From Verrucomicrobiota bacterium (GTDB lineage: Bacteria > Chlamydiota > Chlamydiia > Chlamydiales > SM23-39), in the NCBI GenBank assembly GCA_018968815.1, contig JAGWZL010000001.1:61178-125177 (forward strand): a DNA stretch of 64,000 nucleotides, given 5' to 3'. Under the pieces are notes generated by a model. It saw only the letters and a program-made list of their open reading frames with translations, ran no database searches and was not told where the DNA came from. Position 1 is the stretch's first letter; each line of letters begins with the position of its first letter. Positions 13,960 to 36,151 of this stretch are shown piece after piece. The translations under genes were made by a program, and so were the position numbers.

Positions 13960-18784
<4,825 letters not shown>

Positions 18785-20051: not shown

Positions 20052-21478
20052 GCCTGTTTATCTTCCATGCCAATGGACAGAATCAGTTCCGTTTCTTCTG
20101 GATTGAGAACGATCCCAAAGCAGCACTCAATCCCTTGGTGGTTAAAAACGAAGGGGCGAGAAATTTTGCCGATATGCAACGTCTGATCTAACCAGAGGAA
20201 ACGGTGGGTATACACGCGACATTCGTTGTCTAGCCAAAGGACTTCGTGCACGAGCATCAAATAGCCTCCATCAAAGGCAATGGGGGGCGCAGATCCTCGG
20301 AATCTGGAACAGTCGTAAGGGGGATCATACTCCAAAAAGGTTGAAATCGATTCGCTTTCAGGATCGAGTTCGAAAATGCGGAAAGGGGCGTATCCATACA
20401 CCGTCAACAACTTTTCCTGATGGATGAAAGGGAGCCAATTTTTTTCGCATCGTCCGATTTCTGGTCCAAGGAGCGGCCACAATCGATCTAGGAAAAGGAT
20501 CTCGGAGCCTTTTGGGGAGAGCTTGCACAGTGAGATCTGAGGCACTTTATCAATACTGGTATCGCATGTTGTGCAAGAAAACCAGAGCCGATCTCGATAT
20601 TGAAAGAGGCGCGCATCTTCTAGCCCTTCAATCGCTGAATCAATGCGAGGGCGATGCAAAGCATCGACAATCTCTCTTTTCTGAAGTAACTTGAAAGAAG
20701 GATCATAAGAAAGAAGGAAATTTCTCGTTCGGATTTTGCCATCTGGGTCGATTGTGTGGTAATATTTTCCTTCTTGGATGGTGTAATTCACCGATCTGAG
20801 AATGACTTCGTAGCCATTGTTTGTTTTGATGATGGAGGGGTTCATGGGGTGGTAGCGCTCTTCGCCATGTTCTTGAATCTGGGGGAGGTCGACGTTGATT
20901 TCCTTTAACTGTAATCCTTTTAAATTGGAGAGATAAAATCTGGAATTTTTGATGGCTAACGATTTGATTGCATCGGGAACATTTTTGCCCAAAAGGAGGC
21001 GGTTGATGGCGCGAAAACCCTCTTCGCGAAATGGGGTATAATAGGCAGCGATCGAGAGTTCTTCATCGAGTTGATGCACGAGGGTGGAACTGTTGTAGGG
21101 GCAAGCTTTTCCCTGTTTGGCAAAGTTGTAGGCCTGCCAAGGGTTGTCTTGGAGGCGGTAGACTCTGGCCATTCTGTGCAGGGGTTCTGCTCGGGTGGGG
21201 TTATAAGAGAAGGCGGTGCGATAAGCGTCGAGGGCTGCTGGCAAATATCCCAATGTTTCTCGGCATTCGCCTAGCATGAGCCAGCAAAAGAAACAGGCAT
21301 CGCGCTCTTGTGTTTCGGCGGAGATGGCTTCGTAGAGTTGAATGGCTTCTTGGTATTTTCCTTCGGACTTATAGGTGTTGGCGCGTTGTAGTTCAAGGGG
21401 TCCGTCTGTGGCTGTGAGGCAGGAGATGAGAAGAAGAAGGACGAACGATTTTTTCATTGGTGCCAACAAGGTTCTCAA
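20000..21478 (-). CDS. Secreted TPR protein with uncharacterised C-terminal domain (possible carbohydrate-active fold)
   Basis: Signal-like N-terminus and a TPR segment ('YKSEGKYQEAIQLYEAI'). The C-terminal ~300 aa carry 'MNPSIIKTNNGYEVILRSVNYT' and 'EKNWLPF'. It lies 16 nt downstream of the repeat/barrel gene. The function call is weak. Confidence 0.6.
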   Translation of the reverse strand: MRTLLAPMKKSFVLLLLISCLTATDGPLELQRANTYKSEGKYQEAIQLYEAISAETQERDACFFCWLMLGECRETLGYLPAALDAYRTAFSYNPTRAEPLHRMARVYRLQDNPWQAYNFAKQGKACPYNSSTLVHQLDEELSIAAYYTPFREEGFRAINRLLLGKNVPDAIKSLAIKNSRFYLSNLKGLQLKEINVDLPQIQEHGEERYHPMNPSIIKTNNGYEVILRSVNYTIQEGKYYHTIDPDGKIRTRNFLLSYDPSFKLLQKREIVDALHRPRIDSAIEGLEDARLFQYRDRLWFSCTTCDTSIDKVPQISLCKLSPKGSEILFLDRLWPLLGPEIGRCEKNWLPFIHQEKLLTVYGYAPFRIFELDPESESISTFLEYDPPYDCSRFRGSAPPIAFDGGYLMLVHEVLWLDNECRVYTHRFLWLDQTLHIGKISRPFVFNHQGIECCFGIVLNPEETELILSIGMEDKQAYLGWIDVETIRSLFSD

Positions 21479-21494
21479 ATATGCTTTGATGAAG

Positions 21495-24400
21495 TCAATC
21501 GAAATTCGCTTGCCAGCACTGTCGTTTCATGACGGGGATGACTTCAAAGCGATAAATGGGCTGATAGATTTGCCAATCTCTTAAACCGCAGGGGCGCAGA
21601 TTTTGTTTTGAGAGTTGGTAGAGGGGCAAATTGACGATAAACGTGGCTTCCCAGATGGGTCCGAACAGGGGGTCATATCGTCCGCTGAGGTCCAAGGCGA
21701 GGTAATCGCGATATTTGGGCATGATTCTTCCCTGAACGCCGACGGTGCTGTGGGAGGTGGCTTGATTTTTGGCAATGAAGTAGATTCCTGCGACGGCTTC
21801 TAGGGAAAACAGTTTGCCGTTGATGATTAAATAACCCACTTCTTGATTGAAGGCGTACGCGATCGATTCAATTGAATCGCTGATGGCAAAATAGCCGCCT
21901 TGATACTGATCATACGTGCATCTCCAGAGTTTTCTTTTCTTTCCGAAGGGGGCGTAGACGTTGCCTCGGAAGTTCCATCGTCTGCCCAATATTTCTAATC
22001 CTGCTCCGAGCTGATTGAAATAGCCGATGGATCCTTGTCGGTAATCGTAATACACATTAAATCCTAGCATTTCGCAGAAACCGGAAGATGCATCGGGAAC
22101 GAATCGTCCTCCTACGCCGGCATTTGTGGCGTAGGTATTATTGGCAAATCGGTGTCCTCTGAGGTCGATGAATGGGTAGATATGGCCTGGGCGATATTTG
22201 GGCGCCATGAAAATATCCAGTGTTGCAAAATTGGTTGCAAGGGGAAGGCAATGGCATTCCTGAGATCCCCAGACGTAGCTCATGGTCAACCGTCTGGGCC
22301 AGAAGGAAGCCATCGTGGATTGATGCGAGACTTCTGGGGGGCTTGTTGTCTCTTTCTGTGATGATTTTGGGTGGGAACGAGTTGCTGTTGGCGGCGCTGG
22401 CCTTTCTGTGACTGGTTCCATTGCCATGTGATCAAGCATAGGGGTGTGCCATAGTTCTTCTGGGATGCATTGTGGATAGCTTTCGATGCGATCCGCAATG
22501 CCAAGGACGCCGAAGGGGAACTCGTTCATTTGCGGATCGGTCAGCGGATCCATGACCCATGTGCTTTCTTGGGCTTCCAATAAATGGCACGCCACCCAAT
22601 ATTCTCGATCTGTGCTTGGGGCCTCTTCTCCGCATGCTGTCTCTTCGAATGCAGAAGATGCCCAATGGGTCTCTTCTGCGGGTTGTTGCACAATTTCGGT
22701 GGGCGCTTCGTGGATCATGGGCGCCTCTTCCAATGGCGCCTCACTGCTTGCCACATCGCTGGGTTCTGGGCATGACAACTCTGCCAACTGCACCTGAGAG
22801 GGAGCTGCTTCCGGCATATCGATGAATGGCTCTCGAGTAGCGACCCCATCGATCAAGCAATCGCTAGGTTCTGGGCATGACAACTCTGCAAATTGCACCT
22901 GAGAGGGGGCCTCTTCCGGCACGTCGATGAATCGCTCTCGAGTAGCGACCCCATCGATCAAACAATCGCTGGGTTCTGGGCACGACAACTCTGCAAACCG
23001 CACCTGAGAGGGTGCCTCTTCCGGCATGTCGATGAATGGCTCTCGCGTAGCGACCCCATCGATCAAACAATCGCTAGGTTCTGGGCATGACAACTCTGCA
23101 AATTGCACCTGGGAAGGAGCCTCTTCTGGCATGTCGATGAATCGCTCTCGAGTAGCGACCCCATCGATCAAGCAATCGCTAGGTTCTGGGCACGACAACT
23201 CTGCAAACTGCACCTGAGAGGGAGCCTCTTCTGGCATGTCGATGAATGGCTCTCGAGTAGCGACCCCATCGATCAAACAATCGCTAGGTTCTGGGCACGA
23301 CAACTCTGCAAACTGCATCTGAGAGGGAGCCTCTTCTGGCATGTCGATGAATCGCTCTGTTGTAAATGCAATTTCATCCATCCAGAAGTCGCTCGGTTCT
23401 GGGCAAGTCAACTCCGCAAACAGAATGAGAGGGAGAGAACTTTCTGGAATGTCTACAAACCGCTCTTTGGTCAAGGCGATTCCGTCCATCCAGAAGTCGT
23501 TCGGCTCTGGGCAGGTCAATGTAGCAAACCGGATTTCTCGCAACGGGACCACAGGCTCTGGAGCGAATGACTCTTTGGTAAAGGCGATCCCATCCATCCA
23601 GAAGTCGCTCGGTTCTGGGCAGGTCAATGCAGCAAACCGGATTTGCCGCAACGGGACCACAGGCTCCGGAGCGAACGGCTCTTTGGTAAATGCGATTCCG
23701 TCCATCCAGAAGTCGCTCGGTTCTGGGCAGGTCAATGCAGCAAACCGGATTTGCCGCAGCGGGACTACAGGCTCCGGAGCGAACGGCTCTTTGGTAAATG
23801 CGATTCCGTCCATCCAGAAGTCGCTCGGTTCTGGGCAGGTCAATGCCGCAAACCGGATTTGCCGCAGCGGGACTACAGGCTCCGGAGCGAACGGCTCTTT
23901 GGTAAATGCGATTCCGTCCATCCAGAAGTCGCTCGGCTCTGGGCAGGTCAATGCAGCAAACCGGATTTGCCGCAGCGGGACTACAGGCTCCGGAGCGAAT
24001 GACTCTTTGGTAAATGCGATTCCATCCATCCAGAAGTCGCTCGGTTCTGGGCAGGTCAATGCAGCAAACCGGATTTGCCGCAGCGGGACTACAGGCTCCG
24101 GAGCGAATGACTCTTTGGTAAATGCGATTCCGTCCATCCAGAAGTCGCTCGGTTCTGGGCAAGTCAGTTCAGCAAACCGGATTTGTCGCAGCGGGACTAC
24201 AGGCACCGGAGCGAATGACTCTTTGGTAAATGCGATGCCGTCCATCCAAAAAGGGCTTGGCTCTGGGCAAGTCAGTGCAGCAAACTGAATCTGTCGCAAC
24301 AAGACCACAGGCTCCGGAGCAAACGGCTCTTTGGCGAAGGCGATTCCGTCCATCCAGAAAGGGCTTGGCTCTGGGCAGGTCAATTCAGCAAACCGGATTG

Positions 24401-25256
24401 GCCGCAACAAGACCACAGGCTCCGGAGCGAATGGCTCTTTGGCGAAGGCGATTCCGTCCATCCAGAAAGGGCTTGGCTCTGGGCAAGTCAGTTCAGCAAA
24501 TCGAATCTGTCGCAACAAGACCACAGGCTCTGGAGCGAATGACTCTTTGGCGAAGGCGATTCCATCCATCCAGAAAGGGCTTGGCTCTGGGCACGTCAGT
24601 TCAGCAAACCGGATTGGCCGCAACAAGACCACAGGCTCCGGAGCGAATGACTCTTTGGCGAAGGCGATTCCATCCATCCAGAAAGGGCTTGGCTCTGGGC
24701 AGGTCAATTCGGCAAACCGGATTTGCCGCAGTGGGACCACAGGCTCCGGAGCAAATGGTTCTTTCATAAAAACGACCTCGCTCATGGGAAAATCTCTGAG
24801 AGCGGGGCTTACAAGGGGGGCAAGTGGAATGGGCGCTTGGGGTTTTAGTTGAAAAGCAGGATAGTCAAGACCTGTGCAATGAAGATCTACCGGTTCTTCT
24901 ACTTGATATTGCGCCAAAAGAGCCAATCGTGGCGGCCCCACCTGTTGGTGGAGTTTTTGTTCTACGCTTGTCCCAATACGATCGAACTCCTGCTCTGCAT
25001 TGCTGAGATCTTCCATGGGCAGAATAGAGCGTTGGCATGGTTTCTCCATGCATATCTCCCGAGGGACGGGAGTGGACATCAGGAAATACTGCGCAACTCT
25101 TTGATTTCTAGATCCTTTAACAAAGAATGAGTATTCTTGAGATCCGTGGAGGAAGCCGAATTCTAGAAAAAAAGATCCTGGGATCAGGCTTTCGCGATAA
25201 AACACAAGCCATCCAAACACAACGAGAAGAAATAGAAGAATCTTAGCTTTTCTCAA
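21495..25256 (-). CDS. Repeat-rich outer-membrane protein with a C-terminal inverse-autotransporter-type (intimin/invasin-like) beta-barrel
   Basis: N-terminal anchor/signal 'MRKAKILLFLLVVFGWLVFY'. About 13 repeats of 36 aa plus about 5.5 repeats of 35 aa follow. The C-terminal ~274 aa carry 'NAGVGGRF', 'MLGFNVYYDYR' and 'QLGAGLEILGRRWNFRGNVY', and end with the linker-like 'QPIYRFEVIPVMKR'. Confidence 0.85.
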   Translation of the reverse strand: MRKAKILLFLLVVFGWLVFYRESLIPGSFFLEFGFLHGSQEYSFFVKGSRNQRVAQYFLMSTPVPREICMEKPCQRSILPMEDLSNAEQEFDRIGTSVEQKLHQQVGPPRLALLAQYQVEEPVDLHCTGLDYPAFQLKPQAPIPLAPLVSPALRDFPMSEVVFMKEPFAPEPVVPLRQIRFAELTCPEPSPFWMDGIAFAKESFAPEPVVLLRPIRFAELTCPEPSPFWMDGIAFAKESFAPEPVVLLRQIRFAELTCPEPSPFWMDGIAFAKEPFAPEPVVLLRPIRFAELTCPEPSPFWMDGIAFAKEPFAPEPVVLLRQIQFAALTCPEPSPFWMDGIAFTKESFAPVPVVPLRQIRFAELTCPEPSDFWMDGIAFTKESFAPEPVVPLRQIRFAALTCPEPSDFWMDGIAFTKESFAPEPVVPLRQIRFAALTCPEPSDFWMDGIAFTKEPFAPEPVVPLRQIRFAALTCPEPSDFWMDGIAFTKEPFAPEPVVPLRQIRFAALTCPEPSDFWMDGIAFTKEPFAPEPVVPLRQIRFAALTCPEPSDFWMDGIAFTKESFAPEPVVPLREIRFATLTCPEPNDFWMDGIALTKERFVDIPESSLPLILFAELTCPEPSDFWMDEIAFTTERFIDMPEEAPSQMQFAELSCPEPSDCLIDGVATREPFIDMPEEAPSQVQFAELSCPEPSDCLIDGVATRERFIDMPEEAPSQVQFAELSCPEPSDCLIDGVATREPFIDMPEEAPSQVRFAELSCPEPSDCLIDGVATRERFIDVPEEAPSQVQFAELSCPEPSDCLIDGVATREPFIDMPEAAPSQVQLAELSCPEPSDVASSEAPLEEAPMIHEAPTEIVQQPAEETHWASSAFEETACGEEAPSTDREYWVACHLLEAQESTWVMDPLTDPQMNEFPFGVLGIADRIESYPQCIPEELWHTPMLDHMAMEPVTERPAPPTATRSHPKSSQKETTSPPEVSHQSTMASFWPRRLTMSYVWGSQECHCLPLATNFATLDIFMAPKYRPGHIYPFIDLRGHRFANNTYATNAGVGGRFVPDASSGFCEMLGFNVYYDYRQGSIGYFNQLGAGLEILGRRWNFRGNVYAPFGKKRKLWRCTYDQYQGGYFAISDSIESIAYAFNQEVGYLIINGKLFSLEAVAGIYFIAKNQATSHSTVGVQGRIMPKYRDYLALDLSGRYDPLFGPIWEATFIVNLPLYQLSKQNLRPCGLRDWQIYQPIYRFEVIPVMKRQCWQANFD
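22750..24775 (-). repeat. In-frame tandem repeats: ~13 x 108 bp, then ~5.5 x 105 bp
   Basis: The 108-bp period was measured from recurrences of gaagtcgctcgg (23601 and 23709). The 105-bp period was measured from tcgct(a/g)ggttctggg (22861 and 22966). Units encode 'FAELTCPEPS(P/D)FWMDGIAF(A/T)KE(S/P)FAPEPVV(L/P)LRQIR' and 'FAELSCPEPSDCLIDGVATRE(P/R)FIDMPEEAPSQVQ'. Confidence 0.95.
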
Positions 25257-25622
25257 AATCCTTCAAATTGACTTTAAGTTTTCAAAGTGAATACTTTTAG
25301 GTCATAATTACCTCATAAACTTCTTAATAGAATCACGCTGTCTATAAATCAATAGCAGAGAGCCAGGAGAGAAGGGCTCCAAATGTATCTCACCCGCAGA
25401 TCGGCGCCGAAGAGCTACGAGCTGAAAAGATTCAAGTCGTTCTCATCTTTCAGCTTAAGGATGCGTCTGGGATCATGAATGGCGACACAAAAGATCGTTC
25501 ATCCCAGAGTTAAGAATGATGCAGCTCCTCATTTGTGCAAGTGGAAGGAAAGATTGGGTCATTGTTTAAAATCATTTTTATCAATATGCTTTAGGGCATT
25601 TCATTCATTCTTGAAGGTGCCT

Positions 25623-26501
25623 ATGAAAAAAAACGAAAGCAACAGCCTGATTCCCAACAAACTATCATTTGAAGGTTTAAAGCAGATCAACGAGCACGGA
25701 ATTGAATATTGGAGTGCCAGGAGCTTGCAGCCGTGCCTCGGATACTCTCAATGGAGGCGCTTCGAAAACGCCATCCAAAAAGCTATTGAGTCGTGCAAGC
25801 AGTCTGGAAATGATCCCAATCATCACTTTGCCGGCTCCGGCAAACAGATCAATTTCGGGAAAGGGGCTACTCAAGTTGTTGAAGATTATCATCTTTCGCG
25901 TTTTGCCTGTTATCTGATCGCGCAAAATGGAGATGCAAGAAAACCAGAAATTGCCCATGCTCAGAAGTACTTTGCGATTCAAACTCGACGCCAAGAACTG
26001 ACCGATGCTGCCGTTGCCGATCTCGAACGCATAGAGTTACGCAAGCAAGCCTCTCAAGACTTCAAAGCTCTCTCTGGAGCAGCGCGCGATGCGGGTGTCC
26101 AAAACAAAATGTTCGGAATTTTCCATGATGCCGGATACAAAGGGCTCTATGGGGGATTGGGGGCCGACGCAATCAAGGCACGCAAAGGGATTAATCCCAA
26201 AGAACAGCTCATGGATCGGATGGATAGAACCGAGTTGGCGGCTAATCAGTTTCGGATGACCCAAACGCGAGAAAAGCTCAAACGGGAAGGCATCAAGAAT
26301 CAAAGAGATGCTATCGAGGCCCACGAAGCAGTAGGAAAGGAGGTTCGGGCTGCCATCGCTAAAATCGGCGGTACTCCCCCAGAAAATATTCCCCCTGCTG
26401 AACACATCAAAAAAGTAGAAAAACGCTTAAAAAAGAACAAGCCAAAGTTACTTTTAGATGATGAAGATGCCGGATTGCTGCCTCCAAAACATTTCGAATA
26501 A
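25623..26501 (+). CDS. dinD: DNA-damage-inducible protein D homolog
   Basis: 'GIEYWSARSLQPCLGYSQWRRFENAIQKA', 'LSRFACYLIAQNGDARKPEIAHAQKYFAIQTRRQEL' closely parallels E. coli DinD as I remember it. The start was set to the ATG at 25623 (MKKNESN). The track start at 25479 adds 48 unsupported codons. Confidence 0.85.
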   Translation: MKKNESNSLIPNKLSFEGLKQINEHGIEYWSARSLQPCLGYSQWRRFENAIQKAIESCKQSGNDPNHHFAGSGKQINFGKGATQVVEDYHLSRFACYLIAQNGDARKPEIAHAQKYFAIQTRRQELTDAAVADLERIELRKQASQDFKALSGAARDAGVQNKMFGIFHDAGYKGLYGGLGADAIKARKGINPKEQLMDRMDRTELAANQFRMTQTREKLKREGIKNQRDAIEAHEAVGKEVRAAIAKIGGTPPENIPPAEHIKKVEKRLKKNKPKLLLDDEDAGLLPPKHFE

Positions 26502-26565
26502 ATGGAATGCAGGGCTTTCCATCTAGGTGCGATAGTTTGAACATCACTCACTGGTAAAAAAGAAA

Positions 26566-26640
26566 TCTGGGTGAGAGGATTTGAACCTCCGACCTCTTGC
26601 ACCCCATGCAAACGCGCTAGCCAAGCTGCGCTACACCCAG
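26566..26640 (-). tRNA. tRNA-Pro (anticodon GGG)
   Basis: Hand-folded cloverleaf. Acceptor CTGGGTG/CACCCAG with C1:G72 (typical of bacterial tRNA-Pro). D-stem GCGC/GCGC. Anticodon stem TTTGC/GCAAG with loop A-T-GGG-G-T. T-arm GGAGG-TTCAAAT-CCTCT. Discriminator A. CCA is not encoded. Confidence 0.9.
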
Positions 26641-26904
26641 ATGATCTGACAATACGGCGGCAAGACCCTCAAATTGGATCTCGGCCCGTTTAAATTCTTT
26701 GACTCCGTGCTGGGCGCACTCCTCAACAATTTTTTCCAGGGTGTCGCCAGGGTGGAGTTCGAGGGCTGTGATATCGACCGAAATGGAGGCCGAAAAGACC
26801 ACCCCGTTGCGGAGGCCTTTGACTCGAAAATTCGCAAAAATCGCATCTTTTTTGCGTGTAATATTGGTAAATCGAATCAAATTATTTTCAGCCAAGTTTT
26901 TCAT
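26617..26904 (-). CDS. Hypothetical small protein (doubtful)
   Basis: 95-aa ORF whose last 8 codons overlap the 5' end of the tRNA. No family was recognised. Confidence 0.3.
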   Translation of the reverse strand: MKNLAENNLIRFTNITRKKDAIFANFRVKGLRNGVVFSASISVDITALELHPGDTLEKIVEECAQHGVKEFKRAEIQFEGLAAVLSDHLGVAQLG

Positions 26905-26951
26905 TCGGAGTCCCCCACAAGAAGCTTAAATCTTAGTCGCTCTTATTTCTT

Positions 26952-26976
26952 TCTGTCAACCTGGAACATATCTAGA
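26952..26976 (+). repeat. Left copy of a 25-bp direct repeat bracketing the AlbA_2-type gene
   Basis: tctgtcaacctggaacatatctaga. It matches 28698-28722 at 22 of 25 positions, with the first 15 nt identical. Confidence 0.85.
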
Positions 26977-27217
26977 AATTCTTATGAACCCGCGCCCCAC
27001 ATGGGTGACAAGATGCTTGGGGCGAGGCAAAGCCCAAGTCTAAGAAGGTGCAGCCCTCGTTCTGACCCCTCGTTCTGACCGAGGAGCGCCATTGCCAGAG
27101 GCAGTAGCAACGAGGAAGATCGATTTGTTGAGGGCAGTCATTTTGAGTTTTCAAAAAAATATATTATATACATGTCATTGGCTGTTAAAGATATGCATTA
27201 GCTATGCAATTTTTTTC

Positions 27218-27252
27218 TGCACAGCATTGCACAGTAAATTGCACAGCTGTGC
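27218..27252 (+). promoter_or_regulatory. Operator-like triple TGCACAG repeat with an embedded 12-bp palindrome
   Basis: TGCACAG at 27218, 27228 and 27240 (start-to-start spacing of 10 and 12 nt). The perfect palindrome GCACAGCTGTGC lies at 27241-27252, ending 14 nt upstream of the ATG at 27267. Confidence 0.4.
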
Positions 27253-27266
27253 TATGATGGTTCCAT

Positions 27267-28616
27267 ATGATTGAGCAGCTACTTGCCGAACACGAAGGCA
27301 AAACAATTGAATTCAAAGAGACAGCCCGTTCTTTAGGCGGGATTATGAGGACGGTAGTCGCCTTTGCAAATAGTGCCGGGGGCACTATTGTCATCGGGGT
27401 AAAGGATAAAACAAAAGAGCTGGTAGGGCTTCCGCAGATTCTTTCTGAAGAAGAACGGCTTGCAAACGCGATTACAGATAGCATCCTGCCTCTTCTCACC
27501 CCTGACATCGAAATTCAGTCCATTCGAGGTAAGGAGCTGCTGGTTATTCGAGTCGCTCACAGCATCGGTCCTCATTATTTGAAGTCTGAGGGACCTGAAC
27601 GAGGTGTCTATGTGCGTTTTGGGTCTACGAATCGTTCGGTAGACGTTGAGATGCTCGATTCATTGCGCCTTTTAGCCAAGAAGGTTTCTTATGATGAGCT
27701 TCCTCACCCGAAAGGAGAGCTCAACGCAGAAATTATGAAAGATGTTTTCGAATGGGTAGGGAAAAGGCCGACAACACAAGTGCTGGAAAATTTGGGCGTA
27801 GAAACTGCTAGCAGTGGTACAAAATATCCCAGTAATGGCGGGGTTCTTCTATTTGGAAGCAATCGGATGCAGCTTTTTCCTGATTCACTGATCCGATGCG
27901 CCCGTTTTGGTGGTTCTAATCGGGAGAAAATTCTAGATCAAGCTGATATTGATGCGCCTCTGCCCCAAGCAGCGGATCTTATCATAGCTTTCATTGAGAG
28001 AAATATTTCAAAAGAAGGTCGAATCGGGCGCATGCAACGCGAAGATATTCCTCAATATCCCTCCGTAGCGATTCGGGAAGCTGTAATGAATGCTTTACTT
28101 CATTCAGATTATGCTATGACCGGATGCCATATTCAAATCGCTATTTTTGATGATCGCATAGAGTTTACAAATCCAGGAGGGCTTCCTTTTGGCCAGACAA
28201 TCGAGAAAGCGCTTGGAGGTTCTTCAAGGATCAGGAATCGTGTTATCGCTCGCGTATTTCGAGAGCTACATCTGATTGAACAATGGGGTTCTGGATTTCG
28301 CCGTATTGTGGAAGCTTGCCGAAGCCAAGGGCTTAAACCTCCTCTCATGGAGGAATTAAATAATCAGTTCAGACTCATTCTTTATTCGGAACAAGTCGAA
28401 GACATAACCATACCTCCGTGGGCACAAAAACTCCTTGAATATCTCAAAAAAGAAAGCGAGATCAGCGCAAAAGCCGCTATGAAACTCTGGGACGTCTCTT
28501 CTCGAACGGCTAGAAATCGCTTGAAACAACTTCAAGAACAAGGAATTATTGTTCGTATTGGGACTTCCGAAAGTGATCCGAGTGCCTCTTATATAGAAGC
28601 AAAACGATCATCATAA
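27267..28616 (+). CDS. AlbA_2 (Schlafen-like) / HATPase_c_4 / wHTH putative transcriptional regulator (COG2865-type)
   Basis: N-terminal 'EGKTIEFKETARSLGGIMRTVVAFANSAGGTIVIGV' is the AlbA_2 'divergent AAA' signature. The middle segment is 'REAVMNALLHSDY...IEFTNPGGL'. The C-terminus is winged-helix-like. Confidence 0.8.
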   Translation: MIEQLLAEHEGKTIEFKETARSLGGIMRTVVAFANSAGGTIVIGVKDKTKELVGLPQILSEEERLANAITDSILPLLTPDIEIQSIRGKELLVIRVAHSIGPHYLKSEGPERGVYVRFGSTNRSVDVEMLDSLRLLAKKVSYDELPHPKGELNAEIMKDVFEWVGKRPTTQVLENLGVETASSGTKYPSNGGVLLFGSNRMQLFPDSLIRCARFGGSNREKILDQADIDAPLPQAADLIIAFIERNISKEGRIGRMQREDIPQYPSVAIREAVMNALLHSDYAMTGCHIQIAIFDDRIEFTNPGGLPFGQTIEKALGGSSRIRNRVIARVFRELHLIEQWGSGFRRIVEACRSQGLKPPLMEELNNQFRLILYSEQVEDITIPPWAQKLLEYLKKESEISAKAAMKLWDVSSRTARNRLKQLQEQGIIVRIGTSESDPSASYIEAKRSS

Positions 28617-28697
28617 GAGAAACACATTATAGAGCCACATCTCTATTTCGTTCCCAGCCTCCTAGCTAATGGAAAACGATTTGATTCGATTTACCAA

Positions 28698-28722
28698 TCT
28701 GTCAACCTGGAATAAATCTCGA
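28698..28722 (+). repeat. Right copy of the 25-bp direct repeat
   Basis: tctgtcaacctggaataaatctcga, located 1746 bp from the left copy. Confidence 0.85.
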
Positions 28723-28787
28723 TGTTATACAGCGATCCATTCTTGACCCGTAAAAAGATTTGCTGATAATCTGAGGACTCGCTTTAT

Positions 28788-29489
28788 ATGGCATTCATCG
28801 CTGAAAAAATCGCTTACATGGAAGCTTCCTGGCTGGCAAAACTCCAAGAGGAGTTCGACAAGCCGTATATGAAGCATCTCGAAGCTTTTTTGGCTGGAGA
28901 AATCCGTTTGGGCAAAGAGATTTATCCCCCTTTCGAGCTCATCTTCAACGCCTTTTGCCAAACCCCGTTTGATCAGGTCAAAGTCGTCATCATGGGCCAA
29001 GACCCTTATCATGGAGCGGGGCAAGCTCACGGTCTCTCTTTCAGCGTTCCGAAGGGTGTGGCCCAACCCCCGTCTTTGCAAAATATCTTCAAAGAGCTGA
29101 AAGACGATCTGGGGATCGAACCGCCTCATCACGGCTGTCTCATCGACTGGGCAAAGCGGGGCGTTTTACTCTTAAATGCGACCCTCACGGTGCGCTCCGG
29201 CGAGCCTAAATCCCACTTTGGTCAAGGCTGGGAGACCTTTACCGATCGGGTCATTCAGCTTTTGTGCGAAAGAAAAGACCCCATTGTCTTCATCCTTTGG
29301 GGCAAATCGGCTGCTGAAAAATTCCAACATATCGGCTCCCATGCATCCCACCATCTCGTCTTAACGGCGGCGCATCCGTCGCCTTTTTCTGCTTACACCG
29401 GTTTTTTTGGATGCAAACACTTTTCAAAAACCAATGAATTTTTGAAAAAAGTGGGCAAACAGCCGATCGATTGGGCTATAGGATCCTAA
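28788..29489 (+). CDS. ung: Uracil-DNA glycosylase
   Basis: 'VVIMGQDPYHGAGQAHGLSFSV' and 'LTAAHPSPFSA' are family-1 UDG motifs. Confidence 0.95.
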   Translation: MAFIAEKIAYMEASWLAKLQEEFDKPYMKHLEAFLAGEIRLGKEIYPPFELIFNAFCQTPFDQVKVVIMGQDPYHGAGQAHGLSFSVPKGVAQPPSLQNIFKELKDDLGIEPPHHGCLIDWAKRGVLLLNATLTVRSGEPKSHFGQGWETFTDRVIQLLCERKDPIVFILWGKSAAEKFQHIGSHASHHLVLTAAHPSPFSAYTGFFGCKHFSKTNEFLKKVGKQPIDWAIGS

Positions 29490-31925: not shown

Positions 31926-32837
31926 ATGCAACTCCCTCTAGAACTCCAGTTGGCTGTGGAAACTTTTTTTGACAAAGTTTCTGCGACCCTTTTGCGTAAA
32001 GCCAGAGAATCACTCACCTCGACCTATCGAGAAGGGGGCGTCTCCCCATTTGACGATGAGGCCCATCGACTCGCTTATCTTGCGGTGCGGCTGCCGGCCA
32101 CTTTTGCAGCAGTGCGCAAAGCGTTGCAACAGGTCCATTTGCAAGGGACGCTCCTCGATTTGGGCGCAGGTTTTGGGGCCGCTTCTTGGGCGGCGCTCGA
32201 TCTGTTTCCGCTCGAGCGCGCGACCCTCATCGAACAAAATGCAAAGGCCATCGAACTCGGCAAAAAGCTAGCGGAAGCGCACCCGACTTTGAAGCAGAGC
32301 GCCTGGATACAGCAAACGCTAGACGCTCCCCTGCCAAAGGCCGATACGGGTATTTTGTCTTACGTATTGAGCGAATTGCAGAGCCCAGAGAAGGTGGTGG
32401 AGCATTGCTGGAATGCAGTGCATACATTGATCATCGTCGAACCCGGCACGCCAAAAGCTTTTCAAACCCTGAAAAAAGTGCGAGAGCAACTCATCGGATT
32501 GAAGGCTCACATCCTCGCGCCCTGCCCGCATGCGTTGAAATGTCCCAATGATTGGTGCCATTTTGCTGCCCGCGTCGAAAGAAGTCGATTGCACCGCCTG
32601 CTTAAAGAGGGATCGCTGAATTTCGAGGATGAGAAATTTTGTTACCTCATCGCCTCCAAATCGCCCGCCACATCCGCCCCCAATCGGATCGTCCGCCACC
32701 CCGTCAAGCATCCTGGCTTTGTCCGCCTGTCTCTATGTACCAAAGAGGGGACATTGGCGGAAAAAACAGTGTCTAAAAAAGAGAAGGGGCTTTACCGCAC
32801 AGCCCGCGATGCGGAGTGGGGCGATTCAATCGAGTAA
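31926..32837 (+). CDS. Rsm22-like SAM-dependent methyltransferase
   Basis: 'RLAYLAVRLPATFAAVRKAL', the SAM motif 'LLDLGAGFGAASWAA', and a C-terminal Cys cluster 'APCPHALKCP..WCHF'. The start was set to the ATG at 31926, because the TTG at 31872 would begin inside the hairpin. Confidence 0.7.
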   Translation: MQLPLELQLAVETFFDKVSATLLRKARESLTSTYREGGVSPFDDEAHRLAYLAVRLPATFAAVRKALQQVHLQGTLLDLGAGFGAASWAALDLFPLERATLIEQNAKAIELGKKLAEAHPTLKQSAWIQQTLDAPLPKADTGILSYVLSELQSPEKVVEHCWNAVHTLIIVEPGTPKAFQTLKKVREQLIGLKAHILAPCPHALKCPNDWCHFAARVERSRLHRLLKEGSLNFEDEKFCYLIASKSPATSAPNRIVRHPVKHPGFVRLSLCTKEGTLAEKTVSKKEKGLYRTARDAEWGDSIE

Positions 32838-32897
32838 TAAGGAGAATGGTCCCCCGACTATGGCCACTGTGAGTCTTTTCCCAATGATGGATGAATC

Positions 32898-33875
32898 ATG
32901 AAAGCGATAGGGTGCTTGGTATTTTTGCTTTTGTTGCATGGTTGCTCGACTGGGCCGTCTCGGAAGGAGGCTGTTCAACAGCCTCCATTGCCGCCTAAGC
33001 ATACAGGTTTTTTTGTATCGGCGCCTATCGCCGAATTTTCTTCTACGCAAATACCTTGTTTGCGCGTAAACATTGAAGATCAGCAGTTACTCCTAAAGCT
33101 GGATCTGGGATTTCGAGGAGATCTATCTCTTGAAGCAAATAGTTTGAGCTCTATTCGCTCGAAGGTATTTCTCGGAGAGAAGGATATGTATGGTATGCGA
33201 GGTAAAAAATATAGGGAAAATGTATACCGTATTCCTAAGGTGGAAATTGGGTTAATGACTTTTTCACCTCTGCATGTTCTGGAACAAGATCCGATGTTCA
33301 TGCCAGATGCAAGGTTGATTCAGGATGGGCAAGATGCACCTACCGGTGGAGTCGGGACTCTCGGATGGCAACTCTTTGTAAACACTAACTTGCTGATTGA
33401 CATTCAGCAATCTCGGATTGCTTTTTGTGATAGCCTAGACGAGCTGCACAGAGCAGGCTATATCACTGAAAGCTGCGTAAAAGTCCCGCTGCTTCTAGAG
33501 AGAGGACTCGTAGAACTGGAAGCAGAGGGTCCTGATGGGATGATGCGTTGCGTTTTAGATACAGGATCCACATGGAATATCATCAACGCTGAAATTGACA
33601 AAGAGGTTCCTCTAGAAATAGCAGTATGGGAAGAGCAGAATTCGCTTGAACTACCTTTTCTTAAATTGGGAGGGCGCGATCAGGGGCCTCTTCCTTTTCA
33701 TCGAATGCCTATCCGTCTTCCGATTCATGTGGAAGCAGTCTTAGGTATGGAATTTTTCAAAAAACATGTCGTTTTTTTGGACTTTAAAAACGGGTGCGCT
33801 TACGTGTGGCCAAATGAAGAACCCTTACTTTGTAGACCCCCTCTTAAGCACAGACGCTGCGCGACTCAATCTTGA
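32898..33875 (+). CDS. Lipoprotein with retropepsin-like aspartic-protease motif
   Basis: Lipobox 'LLLHGC' at residues 12-17. A 'VLDTGSTWNII' (D-T-G) motif lies in the C-terminal half and a degenerate 'LKLDLGFRGDLSL' in the N-terminal half. Confidence 0.55.
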   Translation: MKAIGCLVFLLLLHGCSTGPSRKEAVQQPPLPPKHTGFFVSAPIAEFSSTQIPCLRVNIEDQQLLLKLDLGFRGDLSLEANSLSSIRSKVFLGEKDMYGMRGKKYRENVYRIPKVEIGLMTFSPLHVLEQDPMFMPDARLIQDGQDAPTGGVGTLGWQLFVNTNLLIDIQQSRIAFCDSLDELHRAGYITESCVKVPLLLERGLVELEAEGPDGMMRCVLDTGSTWNIINAEIDKEVPLEIAVWEEQNSLELPFLKLGGRDQGPLPFHRMPIRLPIHVEAVLGMEFFKKHVVFLDFKNGCAYVWPNEEPLLCRPPLKHRRCATQS

Positions 33876-34320
33876 AAGGTTTGAAGTGTTCACAATTGAC
33901 ATGGTCTTGCTGTTTTAATTTCTTATTACGATCAAGCGCTACAAAAGTGTTTCTGAATTTCTTGTTACTAACCTTTAGTCGTTCTAGGGTAAATAGTCGG
34001 ATATGAAGCTCGGTTGAGGGAGTAATCTTTGCTGCTTGATTTTTAGATTTTTCCCATTTTATGACCGCAGCATGAGTCACTCCAAAATGTTTGGCAAAGT
34101 CGACTAAGGTCATCTTCAATGATTGCCGGATAAAACGAATTTCATTTCCAGTTAGAGGGAAAGGCTTATGACTTAACATATCAAGAAGAGTCATTTGAAG
34201 AGTGTTGTAGTTAATGTCAGGTACTTCAACTCCCCTGATTTTTTTCATAGGTACGTGGAGCAAAATCACAGGGAACCCAAATCCCTCGTAGACAAACTTT
34301 TCGACCCTATCTTCTTTCAT
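33844..34320 (-). CDS. MqsA-like HTH (XRE-type) antitoxin lacking zinc-finger cysteines
   Basis: 'LTGNEIRFIRQSLKMTLVDFAKHFGVTHAAVIKWEKSKN' matches the remembered MqsA/YgiT HTH pattern. The N-terminal region has no CxxC pairs. It lies 7 nt downstream of the DUF4258-like gene. Confidence 0.65.
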   Translation of the reverse strand: MKEDRVEKFVYEGFGFPVILLHVPMKKIRGVEVPDINYNTLQMTLLDMLSHKPFPLTGNEIRFIRQSLKMTLVDFAKHFGVTHAAVIKWEKSKNQAAKITPSTELHIRLFTLERLKVSNKKFRNTFVALDRNKKLKQQDHVNCEHFKPFKIESRSVCA

Positions 34321-34327
34321 AACTCAC

Positions 34328-34642
34328 TCACCTTTTCACAAGATTAATTACCGTAATAATTAACATTAGATCTTCATCAAAACTGATGATCACTCTTGTT
34401 TTGTCGTCTTGTAAAGTCACTCCTTCGATCGCGTAATTCCAAGCGTTAAATTCTTCTTTATATTCATCACGAGAAGGCACCCTGTACCCCGTCTCAATCA
34501 CGTGAAGAGCGTCTATCAGGGTTATGTCCCGCTCGTATTGCCTACACTCAGCATGAAAAGTTGGCCTGTAGTTACCGTTATCTATACAGGCTTTGGCAAT
34601 TTTTAAAACATCAGTAATTTTACTAGGTCTTTTAAGACTCAT
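34328..34642 (-). CDS. DUF4258-like putative toxin
   Basis: 104 aa from the ATG at 34642. 'FHAECRQYERDITLIDALHVIETG' resembles DUF4258 (recollection). It is paired with the HTH gene. Confidence 0.6.
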   Translation of the reverse strand: MSLKRPSKITDVLKIAKACIDNGNYRPTFHAECRQYERDITLIDALHVIETGYRVPSRDEYKEEFNAWNYAIEGVTLQDDKTRVIISFDEDLMLIITVINLVKR

Positions 34643-34782
34643 GCTGATTCTGAAAAAAGGATATGGGGGAGTGTAACTGAGTAACACATTGATTGCAATG
34701 CATGAAATCTAGATCTGGAGAAATTGTTGCAGGTATACCGAAACAACCTGAAGAATGGTTGTCTCTACCGCAATAAAATGGA

Positions 34783-35034
34783 TCATCGATCGGCCAGACG
34801 ACGAAAAAGACGGAAGCATTTGCGTTTTACATTCTTAAACGTCTTAAGCACCACATCTTCAGGTGCGCCCTCAACGGCTTGGAGAAGAAGGCCACCAGAT
34901 GGATTAACAGTGAGTTGAATAGGGCCAGATTTGCTGAGACCTGCAGATTCCAACATTTGGTCAGTAAGAACGATCGCTCGTTTTTTTCCATGTTTTATGG
35001 GACGGAGGATCATAGGTTTAAATTTTTTTCTCAT
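34783..35034 (-). CDS. AbrB/MazE/SpoVT-like small DNA-binding protein (orphan, tentative)
   Basis: 83 aa. 'KRAIVLTDQMLESAGLSKSGPIQLTVNPSGGLLLQ' loosely fits a looped-hinge-helix pattern. Confidence 0.4.
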   Translation of the reverse strand: MRKKFKPMILRPIKHGKKRAIVLTDQMLESAGLSKSGPIQLTVNPSGGLLLQAVEGAPEDVVLKTFKNVKRKCFRLFRRLADR

Positions 35035-35164
35035 GATCTTACCACAAGGCTCCGTTTTCTGTGTATGTTGTTTTGTTTATTTGTGCAAGAGCGGTCTCTT
35101 GATCGGGTTTCATTAAAAAAGTGATCCGCTATCTACTCCAGAAGACACCCAGTAAGCGAATAAA

Positions 35165-35185
35165 AAATGAACTCAAAAGTTGGGT
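35165..35185 (+). repeat. Solo copy of the MITE terminal repeat
   Basis: aaatgaactcaaaagttgggt is identical to 18618-18638. No inverted partner was seen nearby. Confidence 0.7.
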
Positions 35186-35200
35186 CTTTGACTTGTAGGG

Positions 35201-36064
35201 TCATCCCTCCACTGCTTTCATTGCCTCATGAGGCGCAGACAGCAGTTTGTCTGCAGATGAGCTGACGACAGAGATTGACGGCTCTTCTTTCTCCTGAGCG
35301 GCCAAATATCTTCCGAGTAGATGTCCAAGGCCAAATAAGGTGAATAGGCACAGTAGGAAAGAGCTTAGATCCAGCTCAGAAAGTGTCCACAGTTCGTACA
35401 GTGCATAAGTAGCGAGTGCCGGCGTAAGTAGCGTGAATGCTTTTTTTACCCCCGGAATATCTCCTTTGTTTCGTAAATATTGAATCGCATTTTGTGTGGC
35501 TACAGCTTCCTGATAAAGAGTGACTAGGGGGAGCCGGCTAGCGAGCCCATAAAGTACGGGATTTTCTCGTGTGTGAAAATCTTTGGCGTGACCCGCTTCA
35601 TGAAGCGCAATAGACGCATCATCTGAAAAAAGGTAGATTGTGTTGGCTGAGGGTGAAAAGCGATCCCCAGGAAATCCGGTTAATTTCGACACAGCCAATG
35701 TTGTTATTATCCCGTCTGCAAGACCGATCGTGCATTTTGACAAGCGGGACGTTTTGGGATTGGACATAATTCGTATCCACGTGCTGCCTGGGTCGTACTC
35801 GTTTACAGAAACACGTACATCGTGCAATCCATTTTCATGTAAATAGTTCCTCATCTTGTCGAGGGTCTCCTGAGAAATATTTCCCGAACCAAATTTCGAA
35901 TTCCACAGGAATAATTTTGCAGGAATAGAGAGGAGGTTTCGGATGCCATCTACGATTCGATCGGAAGCGCCGACGCTAATCTCAATCATTTCTTTAGTTT
36001 TATTGGATTGCGGAGCTTCTATTTCTTGTTTGCGAGCAAAAGGATTAATTGACGATAGTTCCAT
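35201..36064 (-). CDS. Membrane-associated HExxH putative zinc metalloprotease
   Basis: 'IALHEAGHAKDF' (HExxH) plus C-terminal hydrophobic helices. Confidence 0.55.
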   Translation of the reverse strand: MELSSINPFARKQEIEAPQSNKTKEMIEISVGASDRIVDGIRNLLSIPAKLFLWNSKFGSGNISQETLDKMRNYLHENGLHDVRVSVNEYDPGSTWIRIMSNPKTSRLSKCTIGLADGIITTLAVSKLTGFPGDRFSPSANTIYLFSDDASIALHEAGHAKDFHTRENPVLYGLASRLPLVTLYQEAVATQNAIQYLRNKGDIPGVKKAFTLLTPALATYALYELWTLSELDLSSFLLCLFTLFGLGHLLGRYLAAQEKEEPSISVVSSSADKLLSAPHEAMKAVEG

Positions 36065-36122
36065 AAATTACATTGTCTGTTTGTGTTTTATTATATCAAA
36101 TTTGTTTGTTTTTTTGCATAGC

Positions 36123-36151
36123 TTTACAATTGATGAGTAGATTGCTATAAT
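36123..36151 (+). promoter_or_regulatory. Sigma-70-type promoter
   Basis: -35 TTTACA (36123-36128), 17-nt spacer, -10 TATAAT (36146-36151). An SD-like ggtgagg precedes the ATG at 36173. Confidence 0.55.

What the first reader, a model, noticed from the sequence alone, without database searches (positions are those of the whole stretch)
26952..28722. AlbA_2/HATPase_c_4 regulator gene bracketed by 25-bp direct repeats next to tRNA-Pro: a single-gene cassette insertion?
tctgtcaacctggaa(c/t)a(t/a)atct(a/c)ga occurs at 26952-26976 and 28698-28722 (22 of 25 positions identical, first 15 exact). The two copies enclose only the 449-aa AlbA_2 (Schlafen-like)/ATPase/wHTH gene and its operator-like upstream repeats. 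The left copy lies about 310 bp from tRNA-Pro(GGG), a classic integration hotspot. COG2865-type genes are frequent passengers of defence/accessory islands. No integrase is present, so the repeats may be remnants of att sites or the footprint of an unknown cassette-mobilising mechanism.
Basis: seen in the sequence. Interest (0 to 1): 0.55.

Follow-up and report, generated by a model that had tools for sequence, protein, structure and literature searches.

The report
Rearrangement scar around relocated island gene
The 25-base repeats are real and bracket a gene that related chlamydiae lack at this spot, but they look like the scar of a messy copy-and-delete rearrangement of a decayed tRNA-Pro island, not the attachment sites of a new mobile cassette.

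Summary
The repeat is confirmed: 26952-26976 and 28698-28722, 22 of 25 identical, unique in the window. The organism is an environmental Parachlamydiales.

- **Empty site in relatives.** In sister species tRNA-Pro(GGG), a conserved 95-aa ORF and ung are only 350-550 bp apart with no AlbA_2 gene between them. The roughly 1.75-kb segment is therefore a lineage-specific insertion.
- **Position.** It sits exactly between two divergent promoters. The left repeat contains the -35 box of the ORF95/tRNA-Pro promoter.
- **Not att sites.** They are unrelated to the tRNA, and no integrase lies nearby. The right copy is fused to an exact 19-nt inverted copy of ORF95 codons, which is fused to the truncated 5' end of a partner gene that follows AlbA_2 in relatives. 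This patchwork points to illegitimate, template-switch or duplication-deletion recombination.
- **Origin of the gene.** Relatives carry AlbA_2 on the other (3') side of tRNA-Pro. There it is cargo of P4-type integrase elements flanked by tRNA-fragment repeats, and it has moved horizontally (dS 0.6-1.0 against a saturated backbone).

The att or novel-cassette reading does not. Interest is modest.

The parts
25479..26501 (+). DinD/Bro-N family gene (PADLOC candidate PDC-S13). It is an island remnant on the 3' side of tRNA-Pro. In relatives a gene of this type lies directly upstream of AlbA_2.
   Evidence: Pfam Bro-N. PADLOC PDC-S13, E = 2.7e-110. NCBIfam DinD, E = 7.7e-107. Synteny in L087, L084, L088 and L007.
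26521..26564 (.). Flank of the tRNA's 3' end. It resembles the sequence that adjoins the tRNA or tRNA fragment next to AlbA_2 in L088 and L090.
   Evidence: blastn of window 26521-26607 against L090 2916-3001, 84% identity. Alignment A1.
26565..26641 (-). tRNA-Pro(GGG), the attachment target of the AlbA_2-carrying elements in relatives.
   Evidence: ARAGORN. Rfam tRNA, 56.7 bits. tRNA 3' fragments flank AlbA_2 in L084, L085, L105 and L090.
26617..26904 (-). ORF95, a conserved small protein gene whose last 25 nt overlap the tRNA. It is the source of the inverted filler.
   Evidence: Conserved at 62-98% amino-acid identity in L004-L022. dN 0.02-0.07 against dS above 1.2.
26863..26889 (.). Left arm of inverted repeat I1, corresponding to ORF95 codons about 6-14. 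It is the template of the 19-nt filler.
26930..26959 (-). Promoter of ORF95/tRNA-Pro: TTGACA, 18-nt spacer, TAAGAT. The -35 box lies inside the left repeat copy.
   Evidence: Promoter scan, 10 of 12 matches. tttctttctgtcaa is conserved in all relatives.
26952..26976 (.). Left repeat copy P. It is native sequence made of the -35 box plus 16 nt upstream of it.
   Evidence: Its 3' half aligns with the GAACCTATCC motif of L006, L007 and L018.
26977..27198 (.). Segment x, 222 nt of unknown origin and relatively GC-rich. It contains a 13-nt tandem duplicate at 27054-27079.
   Evidence: No homology in any fetched locus or elsewhere in the window. No Rfam hit. No significant fold.
27199..27266 (+). 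Conserved promoter/operator region with TGCACAG repeats. It always travels with the gene.
   Evidence: Homology with about 18 loci starts at 27199-27202. Alignment of upstream regions.
27267..28616 (+). AlbA_2 (Schlafen-like) / HATPase_c_4 / winged-HTH gene, 449 aa.
   Evidence: Pfam. Homologs at 77-88% nucleotide identity in many contexts.
28617..28679 (+). Remnant of the 5' end of the partner gene that follows AlbA_2 in L018, L092, L093 and L108. Its ATG is lost through a 16-nt gap, and it is truncated at about codon 22.
   Evidence: tblastx. Sequences. tblastn with p200. Alignment A2.
28680..28698 (.). Exact inverted copy of ORF95 positions 26863-26881, interpreted as templated filler.
28698..28722 (.). 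Right repeat copy P', the more diverged copy.
28723..28770 (+). Native spacer followed by the ung promoter: TTGACC at 28743, 16-nt spacer, GATAAT.
   Evidence: Promoter scan. Collinear with L004 from 28742. P' plus the spacer forms a weak hairpin, z = -2.2.
28788..29489 (+). ung (uracil-DNA glycosylase), the conserved right-hand neighbour.
   Evidence: Pfam UDG. Orthologs in relatives.

Best explanation
The 25-nt repeats are a scar of illegitimate, replication-type recombination. The event placed the AlbA_2 gene, with its own promoter/operator and a stub of its partner gene, between the back-to-back promoters of ORF95/tRNA-Pro and ung.

AlbA_2 is normally cargo of small P4-type integrase elements inserted at the 3' end of tRNA-Pro(GGG). 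Relatives show the order DinD/Bro-N, AlbA_2, partner, tRNA-Pro, ORF95, ung.

In this lineage two routes give the observed structure. One is a tandem duplication spanning AlbA_2 through the ORF95 promoter, followed by two deletions. The other is a single multi-template-switch event. Either yields DinD, tRNA-Pro, ORF95, P, x, AlbA_2, partner stub, 19-nt inverted ORF95 filler, P', ung. P was copied twice, which produced the direct repeat.

Shown: the empty sites, the composite junction, the promoter content of the repeat, the island cargo status of the gene and its horizontal mobility.

Inferred: the order and number of events, and whether the gene came from the neighbouring island or from another chlamydia.
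For: 1. **Empty sites.** The distance from tRNA-Pro to ung is 357 nt in L004, 393 nt in L018, and about 350-550 nt in L005, L006 and L007. It is 2147 nt here.
2. **Junction patchwork.** Partner-gene 5' homology runs to about 28679. It then switches, at the imperfect microhomology GGAAAACGATT versus TGAAAATAATT, to 19-20 exact nt of the ORF95 sense strand, which is inverted relative to the resident gene. It then switches at a single T to P'.
3. **Native target sequence.** P contains the -35 box TTGACA of the ORF95/tRNA-Pro promoter, and the ung -35 box sits at the right junction. The 3' half of P aligns with native sequence in L006, L007 and L018. The duplicated sequence is therefore target sequence.
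4. **Position of the gene in relatives.** L018, L087, L088, L084 and L105 carry AlbA_2 on the 3' side of the tRNA, next to a Bro-N/DinD-type gene. The window's tRNA 3' flank resembles the element-side flank of L088 and L090.
5. **No mobility machinery.** There is no integrase, transposase, AAA_25 or DUF5681 gene within about 15 kb or in the whole window. The insert has no terminal inverted repeats. Only 27199-28622 is shared with other copies.
6. **L094 analogue.** A roughly 30-nt repeat also brackets AlbA_2 there, but one copy lies inside the conserved C-terminal coding region of a host gene. That repeat is likewise a templated or duplication scar and not an element boundary.
7. **Hairpin at the site.** The native spacer is an imperfect palindrome, a known context for template switching. 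This last link rests on general knowledge; PMC5120786 and PMC7954356 surfaced in a search but were seen only as abstracts.
Against: - No intermediate state (a tandem duplication, or a close strain with the ancestral order) was found. The closest relative available has backbone dS above 1.2.
- Segment x (26977-27198) has no identifiable source, so a foreign origin of the fragment cannot be excluded.
- P and P' differ at 3 of 25 positions, while the 19-nt filler is exact. That is slightly uneven for a single event.
- L104 (a repeat of at least 51 nt from a CNNM gene's 3' end) and L105/L084 (tRNA fragments) show that real att-like repeats also flank this gene elsewhere. An att-type origin later scrambled by deletion is therefore not excluded.
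Confidence: 0.6

Rival explanations
1. A foreign DNA fragment from a co-resident chlamydia, carrying x, AlbA_2 and the partner stub, was captured at a break or stalled fork between the two promoters. Capture was by end-joining or microhomology-mediated repair and created a 25-nt target duplication plus templated filler. The junction chemistry is the same as in the best explanation, but the source differs and there was no prior local copy.
For: AlbA_2 dS is 0.62-0.97 against L018, L084, L087 and L088, while ung and ORF95 dS are saturated. Proteins more than 90% identical occur in MAGs labelled Simkaniaceae and Rhabdochlamydiaceae. The gene occurs in many unrelated contexts: ProRS, RecA, DnaB-GidA and CNNM neighbourhoods. 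Segment x is unmatched locally. L007 has the DinD-tRNA-ORF95-ung backbone without AlbA_2.
Against: Relatives almost always carry the gene a few hundred bases away, on the other side of this same tRNA. A local source is therefore more parsimonious. The tRNA 3' flank still looks like an element end.
Confidence: 0.2
2. P and P' are attL and attR of a decayed integrative element (a CIME-like remnant). Its tyrosine integrase, now lost or acting in trans, used the promoter spacer as a primary or secondary attachment site. Later deletions trimmed the element to one gene.
For: Intact and decayed integrase elements carry this gene in relatives: L095 has a P4-type integrase plus an AAA_25 primase/helicase-like gene plus DUF5681, and L108 has an integrase fragment. 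Single-gene remnants flanked by att-like repeats exist in L105 (about 45 nt), L084 (54 nt) and L104 (at least 51 nt). The pattern of an exact core followed by imperfect positions is att-like.
Against: The repeat has no similarity to the tRNA-Pro att region or to the repeats of L094 and L104. No integrase is present in 64 kb. The left edge of the right copy coincides exactly with an inverted fragment of the host's ORF95, which site-specific recombination does not produce. The repeat is native promoter sequence.
Confidence: 0.1
3. A dedicated, still unknown cassette-mobilising activity inserts the AlbA_2 unit and generates long (25-50 nt), variable target-site duplications.
For: Repeat-bracketed AlbA_2 units recur in the window, L094 and L104. 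An unrelated two-gene MBL/DUF1706 segment in L087 lies between 50-nt repeats of the operator.
Against: The L094 repeat encloses native host coding sequence. There are no conserved element ends. Repeat lengths and positions relative to the gene vary. Another 3.3-kb indel against L004 has no repeats. No candidate enzyme was found.
Confidence: 0.07
4. The repeat is a chance match.
For: Short two-copy families are common in repeat finder output.
Against: 15 exact plus 7 of 10 further positions, unique in 64 kb. It is adjacent to a second 19-nt exact match. It sits exactly at the boundary defined independently by the empty sites.
Confidence: 0.01

Closest known systems
tRNA-targeting genomic islands and integrative mobilizable elements with P4-type tyrosine integrases, and their integrase-less remnants (CIMEs)
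   Same: In relatives the AlbA_2 gene is cargo of such elements at tRNA-Pro(GGG), flanked by 45-54-nt repeats of the tRNA 3' end (L084, L105, L090). L095 keeps the integrase, a primase/helicase-like gene and DUF5681. The window keeps a DinD/Bro-N gene at the tRNA's 3' end. A genomic island flanked by 17-bp direct repeats is described in Protochlamydia (PMC548262, seen only as the abstract listed).
   Different: The window's repeats are not tRNA-derived and lie on the 5' side of the tRNA. They are native promoter sequence, and no integrase is present.
Replication-based complex rearrangements with microhomology and short templated insertions (FoSTeS/MMBIR, short-range template switching)
   Same: The junction is built from short pieces copied from within about 100 nt of the target, one of them inverted. 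Imperfect microhomology is present at the switch point. A flanking stretch is duplicated, and the site is hairpin-prone.
   Different: These mechanisms are described mainly in eukaryotes and E. coli models and have not been shown in chlamydiae. The event here is inferred from a single end state.
Tandem duplication followed by partial deletion (an amplification-collapse scar)
   Same: It explains the P|x junction, the loss of AlbA_2 from the tRNA's 3' side and the residual direct repeat without any special enzyme. The L094 repeat fits the same scheme.
   Different: It needs three steps, and no intermediate was observed.
Insertion sequences that create long, variable direct repeats (IS1634 and IS1549 of the IS4 family; recalled from memory, not tested)
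   Same: Long target-derived repeats of variable length flank the inserted DNA.
   Different: No transposase is present. There are no terminal inverted repeats and no conserved ends among copies.
COG2865-type AlbA_2/HATPase_c_4/wHTH regulators
   Same: The three-domain architecture is identical. The conserved palindromic operator-like repeats upstream suggest autoregulation.
   Different: The function is untested. PADLOC gives only weak similarity to pAgo-associated Schlafen-like regions.

Membership tests
tRNA-integrated island bounded by att repeats (tyrosine integrase) | The direct repeats are copies of the 3' part of the target tRNA. | tested here: not met
   No second tRNA-Pro fragment exists anywhere in the window. 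The repeat lies 311 nt beyond the 5' end of the tRNA and is unrelated to it.
tRNA-integrated island bounded by att repeats (tyrosine integrase) | An integrase gene lies inside or next to the bounded segment. | tested here: not met
   Only AlbA_2 lies between the repeats. tblastn with the L095 integrase finds nothing in the window. Pfam scans of ORFs from 11.9 to 36 kb show none.
tRNA-integrated island bounded by att repeats (tyrosine integrase) | The same gene is carried by integrase elements at this tRNA in relatives. | tested here: met
   L095 has integrase, AAA_25, DUF5681 and AlbA_2. L105 and L084 have tRNA-fragment repeats.
Transposon or insertion sequence with target-site duplication | Terminal inverted repeats at the ends of the insert. 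| tested here: not met
   The repeat finder shows no inverted repeat at 26977 versus 28697. The only long inverted repeat is the ORF95 copy.
Transposon or insertion sequence with target-site duplication | The same element ends occur at other insertion sites. | tested here: not met
   Homology with about 18 other copies is limited to 27199-28622. The flanks are all different.
Transposon or insertion sequence with target-site duplication | The repeats bracket only element DNA. | tested here: inconclusive
   This is compatible with the window. In the analogous L094 case the repeats enclose 70 nt of conserved host coding sequence.
Template-switch / microhomology-mediated rearrangement junction | A short templated insertion copied from nearby sequence, possibly inverted. 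| tested here: met
   19-20 nt exact inverted copy of 26863-26881 at 28680-28698. Its template lies 71 nt from P.
Template-switch / microhomology-mediated rearrangement junction | Microhomology at the switch points. | tested here: inconclusive
   8 of 10 imperfect matches at the partner/ORF95 switch and a single T at the ORF95/P' switch. The ancestral sequences are inferred from relatives.
Template-switch / microhomology-mediated rearrangement junction | Direct observation of the event or of intermediates. | not testable with these tools
   No relative closer than backbone dS above 1.2 is available. All three other assemblies of this species carry the same structure.
COG2865-type AlbA_2/HATPase_c_4/HTH protein | N-terminal SLFN_AlbA_2 domain, central HATPase_c_4 domain and C-terminal winged HTH. 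| tested here: met
   Pfam E-values of 4e-23, 3e-29 and 3e-8, all above the gathering thresholds.

The most novel reading that the evidence does not exclude
Environmental chlamydiae may possess a mechanism that moves the AlbA_2 unit (promoter/operator plus gene), and perhaps other small cassettes, into diverse sites while duplicating 25-55 nt of target. Candidates are a P4-type integrase acting in trans on degenerate sites, or a replicative insertion process. This would explain the recurrent repeat-bracketed copies in the window, L104 and the L087 MBL/DUF1706 pair.
Probability: 0.08. Interest if true: 0.65.

Novelty: new member of a known kind. Interest (0 to 1): 0.3.

Why it matters
The result turns an apparent mystery cassette into an interpretable history. 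A Schlafen-like regulator gene rides P4-type integrative elements between chlamydial families, and here it survives as a relocated remnant. For chlamydial genomics it documents three things: tRNA-Pro(GGG) as an integration hotspot, an element family not yet described in the papers searched, and a junction with templated filler. That junction suggests replication-type illegitimate recombination shapes these genomes. It does not open a new class of mobile element.

Tried and rejected
- **Dispersed motif.** Rejected. The 15-mer has only two matches in the window, and the 25-mer occurs in no other fetched locus except the same species.
- **Structured RNA in the insert flanks.** Rfam finds only the tRNA. 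Folding of segment x is not significant.
- **Origin of segment x.** blastn and tblastx against the window and 110 loci gave nothing.
- **Integrase, transposase or element genes in the window.** None found.
- **Common core among the repeats.** By eye, the repeats of the window, L094, L104, L105, L084 and L087 share no core. This argues against a single site-specific system.
- **Target duplication in L094.** Rejected after homologs showed that the downstream repeat copy lies inside the conserved C-terminus of the host gene.
- **General repeat footprint in this lineage.** The other large indel against L004 (window 32825-36141) has no flanking repeat.
- **L086 long repeats.** These form a 1.4-kb duplicated block in a nanopore contig and are not comparable.
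- **Closer relatives.** The best AlbA_2 homolog is 92% identical, and exact look-ups returned only the same arrangement.
- **Literature.** Searches on AlbA_2, HATPase_c_4 and COG2865 gave nothing on mobility.
Full report
**Observation.** The two 25-mers are present exactly as described. They lie at 26952-26976 and 28698-28722, are 22 of 25 identical with the first 15 exact, and are 1746 nt apart. The 15-mer core, allowing up to two mismatches, occurs nowhere else in the 64-kb window; 0.19 matches are expected from shuffles. tRNA-Pro(GGG) is at 26565-26641 on the minus strand. The enclosed 449-aa ORF (27267-28616) carries SLFN_AlbA_2, HATPase_c_4 and HTH_DeoR domains.

Positions 28672-28698 are the reverse complement of 26863-26889 (27 nt, 93% complementary, 19-20 nt exact). 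The source stretch lies inside a 95-aa ORF (26617-26904, minus strand). This inverted copy directly abuts the right 25-mer.

**Organism and empty sites.** Exact-protein look-ups place the locus in MAGs (GCA_018971665.1 and GCA_028873315.1). A scan of species-representative genomes with the ung protein shows that the closest relatives are Parachlamydiales/Chlamydiia MAGs.

In nearly all of them tRNA-Pro(GGG) lies 320-550 nt upstream of ung on the opposite strand, with an ORF95 ortholog between them. The distance from tRNA to ung is 357 nt in L004, 393 nt in L018 and about 346 nt in L005. In the window it is 2147 nt.

L004 reads ...tttctttctgtcaacc|ttgacccgtaaaaagatttgctgata.... The window reads ...tttctttctgtcaacc|tggaacatatctaga... 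on the left and ...cgatccattc|ttgacccgtaaaaagatttgctgata... on the right. The segment is therefore a real lineage-specific insertion of about 1.72-1.78 kb.

**What the repeated sequence is.** The string tttctttctgtcaa is conserved in every relative. It is the reverse complement of a -35 box. The promoter scan finds TTGACA (26959-26954), an 18-nt spacer and TAAGAT on the minus strand, which is the ORF95/tRNA-Pro promoter. It also finds TTGACC (28743), a 16-nt spacer and GATAAT on the plus strand, which is the ung promoter.

In L004 the two -35 boxes are back to back. The insertion therefore sits exactly between two divergent promoters and preserves both. The 3' half of the 25-mer (tggaacatatct) aligns with native sequence following the -35 box in L006, L007 and L018 (GAACCTATCC). 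The repeated 25 nt are thus native target sequence, and the left copy is the more ancestral-looking one. P' plus the following spacer forms a weak hairpin (z = -2.2).

**The right junction is a patchwork.** In L018, L092, L093 and L108 a second gene follows AlbA_2 (MNFRHPIEPHLHFVPSLLSNGRRL...; no Pfam, NCBIfam, PADLOC or PHROG match). The window keeps only its first 60 nt or so (28617-28679), and a 16-nt gap has removed the start codon.

At GGAAAACGATT the sequence stops following the partner gene. It instead follows the sense strand of ORF95 for 19-20 exact nt, in inverted orientation relative to the resident ORF95. At a single shared T it then continues into P' (alignment A2).

Site-specific recombination and transposition do not produce junctions of this kind. 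Short templated pieces copied from nearby sequence, some inverted and joined at microhomology, are the signature of template switching or microhomology-mediated repair. This attribution rests on general knowledge; PMC5120786 and PMC7954356 surfaced in a search but were seen only as abstracts.

**Where the gene comes from.** About 20 other chlamydial contigs carry homologs at 77-88% nucleotide and 83-92% amino-acid identity. In every case the shared block is window 27199/27202 to 28606/28622, that is, 65 nt of TGCACAG-repeat promoter/operator plus the ORF. The flanks differ in every locus.

In relatives the gene lies on the other side of the same tRNA:
- L088: Bro-N fragment, AlbA_2, tRNA-Pro, ORF95.
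- L018: AlbA_2, partner gene, one further gene, tRNA-Pro, ORF95, empty site, ung.
- L087: DinD, several genes, AlbA_2, several genes, tRNA-Pro, ORF95, ung.
- L084/L085: a 54-nt tRNA fragment, Bro-N, AlbA_2, then the intact tRNA-Pro.
- L105: a tRNA fragment of about 45 nt, AlbA_2, then the intact tRNA-Pro directly after the stop codon.

L095 has an intact-looking element. It comprises a P4-type integrase (Arm-DNA-bind_3, Phage_int_M and Phage_integrase domains), a 261-aa ORF, an AAA_25 primase/helicase-like protein, DUF5681, a Bro-N remnant and AlbA_2. L108 has an integrase fragment fused to a Bro-N C-terminus directly upstream of AlbA_2 and the partner gene. DUF5681 precedes the module in five further loci.

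AlbA_2 is thus cargo of tRNA-Pro-targeting integrative elements.

The gene has moved horizontally. dS between the window's copy and those of L018, L084, L087 and L088 is 0.62-0.97. In the same pairs ung and ORF95 are saturated; even the closest species, L004, which carries no AlbA_2 copy, gives a backbone dS of 1.2-1.5. Cluster members more than 90% identical come from MAGs labelled Simkaniaceae and Rhabdochlamydiaceae. The gene also sits among housekeeping genes in other genomes.

The window retains a DinD/Bro-N gene (PADLOC PDC-S13) 63 nt from the tRNA's 3' end. The last 44 nt of that spacer resemble the element-side flank in L088 and L090.

**Model.** The simplest history starts from the order seen in relatives: DinD, x, operator, AlbA_2, partner, tRNA-Pro, ORF95, P, ung. 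Two routes reach the present state.
- A tandem duplication from x through P, followed by deletion of the first AlbA_2 copy and deletion of the second tRNA/ORF95 copy.
- A single replication event with four template switches.

Either route gives the observed structure: DinD, tRNA-Pro, ORF95, P, x, operator, AlbA_2, partner stub, inverted ORF95 filler, P', ung. In both, P is the only stretch copied twice, which produces the direct repeat.

A variant with the same junction chemistry has a foreign AlbA_2 fragment captured at the promoter spacer. I cannot separate these because no close relative exists, and because segment x (26977-27198) has no detectable homolog or structure.

**Test of the cassette-mechanism idea.** Scanning the other loci for flanking repeats gave several cases:
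- L094: about 30 nt, 1603 nt apart.
- L104: at least 51 nt, the 3' end of a CNNM gene.
- L086: a 1.4-kb duplicated block.
- L084 and L105: tRNA fragments.
- L087: a 50-nt operator repeat around an unrelated MBL/DUF1706 pair.

The L094 case looked like a second independent target duplication. Homologs of its neighbouring 330-aa gene showed otherwise. The downstream repeat copy lies inside the conserved C-terminal coding region (...MGYxDVNVGPFGYGxGD...), about 70 nt from the stop codon. The repeats therefore enclose native host sequence, and the upstream copy is a 30-nt templated or duplication remnant. That is the same kind of scar as proposed for the window.

The repeats of the different loci share no core. 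The copies share no ends. Another 3.3-kb indel between the window and L004 has no repeats. A dedicated cassette-mobilising mechanism is therefore unlikely, though not excluded for L104 and L087.

**Verdict.** The insertion and the hotspot are real, but the 25-mers are not att remnants. They are a duplicated piece of native promoter sequence at a scrambled rearrangement junction. This is a new example of known processes: island decay plus illegitimate recombination. The side value is a P4-type element family and cross-family transfer of a Schlafen-like regulator in environmental chlamydiae.

Noticed in passing
window 26617-26904 (-) and 26565-26641 (-): ORF95 is a conserved small protein (62-98% identity across many Chlamydiia MAGs; dN 0.02-0.07 against saturated dS). 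Its last 25 nt and its stop codon lie inside the 5' part of tRNA-Pro, and the C-terminus LGVAQLG is encoded by tRNA sequence. If the tRNA is processed from the same transcript, the mRNA would lose its stop codon. There is no Pfam, NCBIfam or PHROG match.
   Followed up: partly
L095 1-6900: An apparently intact small integrative element in a chlamydial metagenome contig. It has a P4-type integrase, a 261-aa ORF, an AAA_25 primase/helicase-like protein, DUF5681, a Bro-N remnant, AlbA_2 and a 172-aa ORF. The architecture resembles a satellite or IME. The contig starts at the integrase, so attL is not visible.
   Followed up: partly
L087 4297-4351 and 5934-5990: A 50-nt direct repeat (49 of 50 identical) of the AlbA_2 operator brackets an unrelated two-gene segment: a metallo-beta-lactamase-fold protein with an Anti-Pycsar Apyc1 Pfam hit, plus DUF1706. 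This could be a second operator of a regulon or another duplication scar.
   Followed up: partly
L104 3801-3851 and 5354-5404: A direct repeat of at least 51 nt (1 mismatch), equal to the 3' end and stop codon of a CNNM/CorC gene, brackets AlbA_2. The right copy starts at the AlbA_2 stop codon. The contig ends inside the repeat, so its full length is unknown.
   Followed up: no
L007 9762-9940; L006 about 3440-3615; L018 9195-9225: A MITE-like element with inverted ends GAACCTATCCGAATAAAA / TTTTATTCGGATAGGTTC sits right after the conserved -35 box in L007. L006 has a related copy, and L018 has only the two arms. The window's 25-mer resembles the left arm.
   Followed up: partly
L107 / L002 (GCA_028873315.1) and L003 (SRR32006849): In two other assemblies of the same species the contigs break inside AlbA_2, at about residue 74 and residues 376-384. 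This suggests a second near-identical copy of the central part of the gene or strain heterogeneity.
   Followed up: no
window 27054-27079: A perfect 13-nt tandem duplicate, CCCTCGTTCTGAC x2, lies inside the unexplained GC-rich segment x.
   Followed up: no
window 32825-36141: A 3.3-kb segment with several ORFs replaces 144 nt of L004. It has no flanking direct repeat. Beyond about 36.5 kb, collinearity with L004 ends.
   Followed up: partly
window 13960-25256: Left of the tRNA locus there are three consecutive collagen-triple-helix-repeat proteins, TPR/glycosyltransferase genes and a 1253-aa protein with an inverse-autotransporter beta domain. This region is absent from the corresponding side of L004, so the tRNA's 3' side is a large variable region.
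   Followed up: no
clusters P0121-P0134: AlbA_2 proteins more than 90% identical to the window's occur in MAGs labelled Simkaniaceae, Rhabdochlamydiaceae, Parachlamydiales and (probably mislabelled) Verrucomicrobia. This indicates cross-family transfer.
   Followed up: partly
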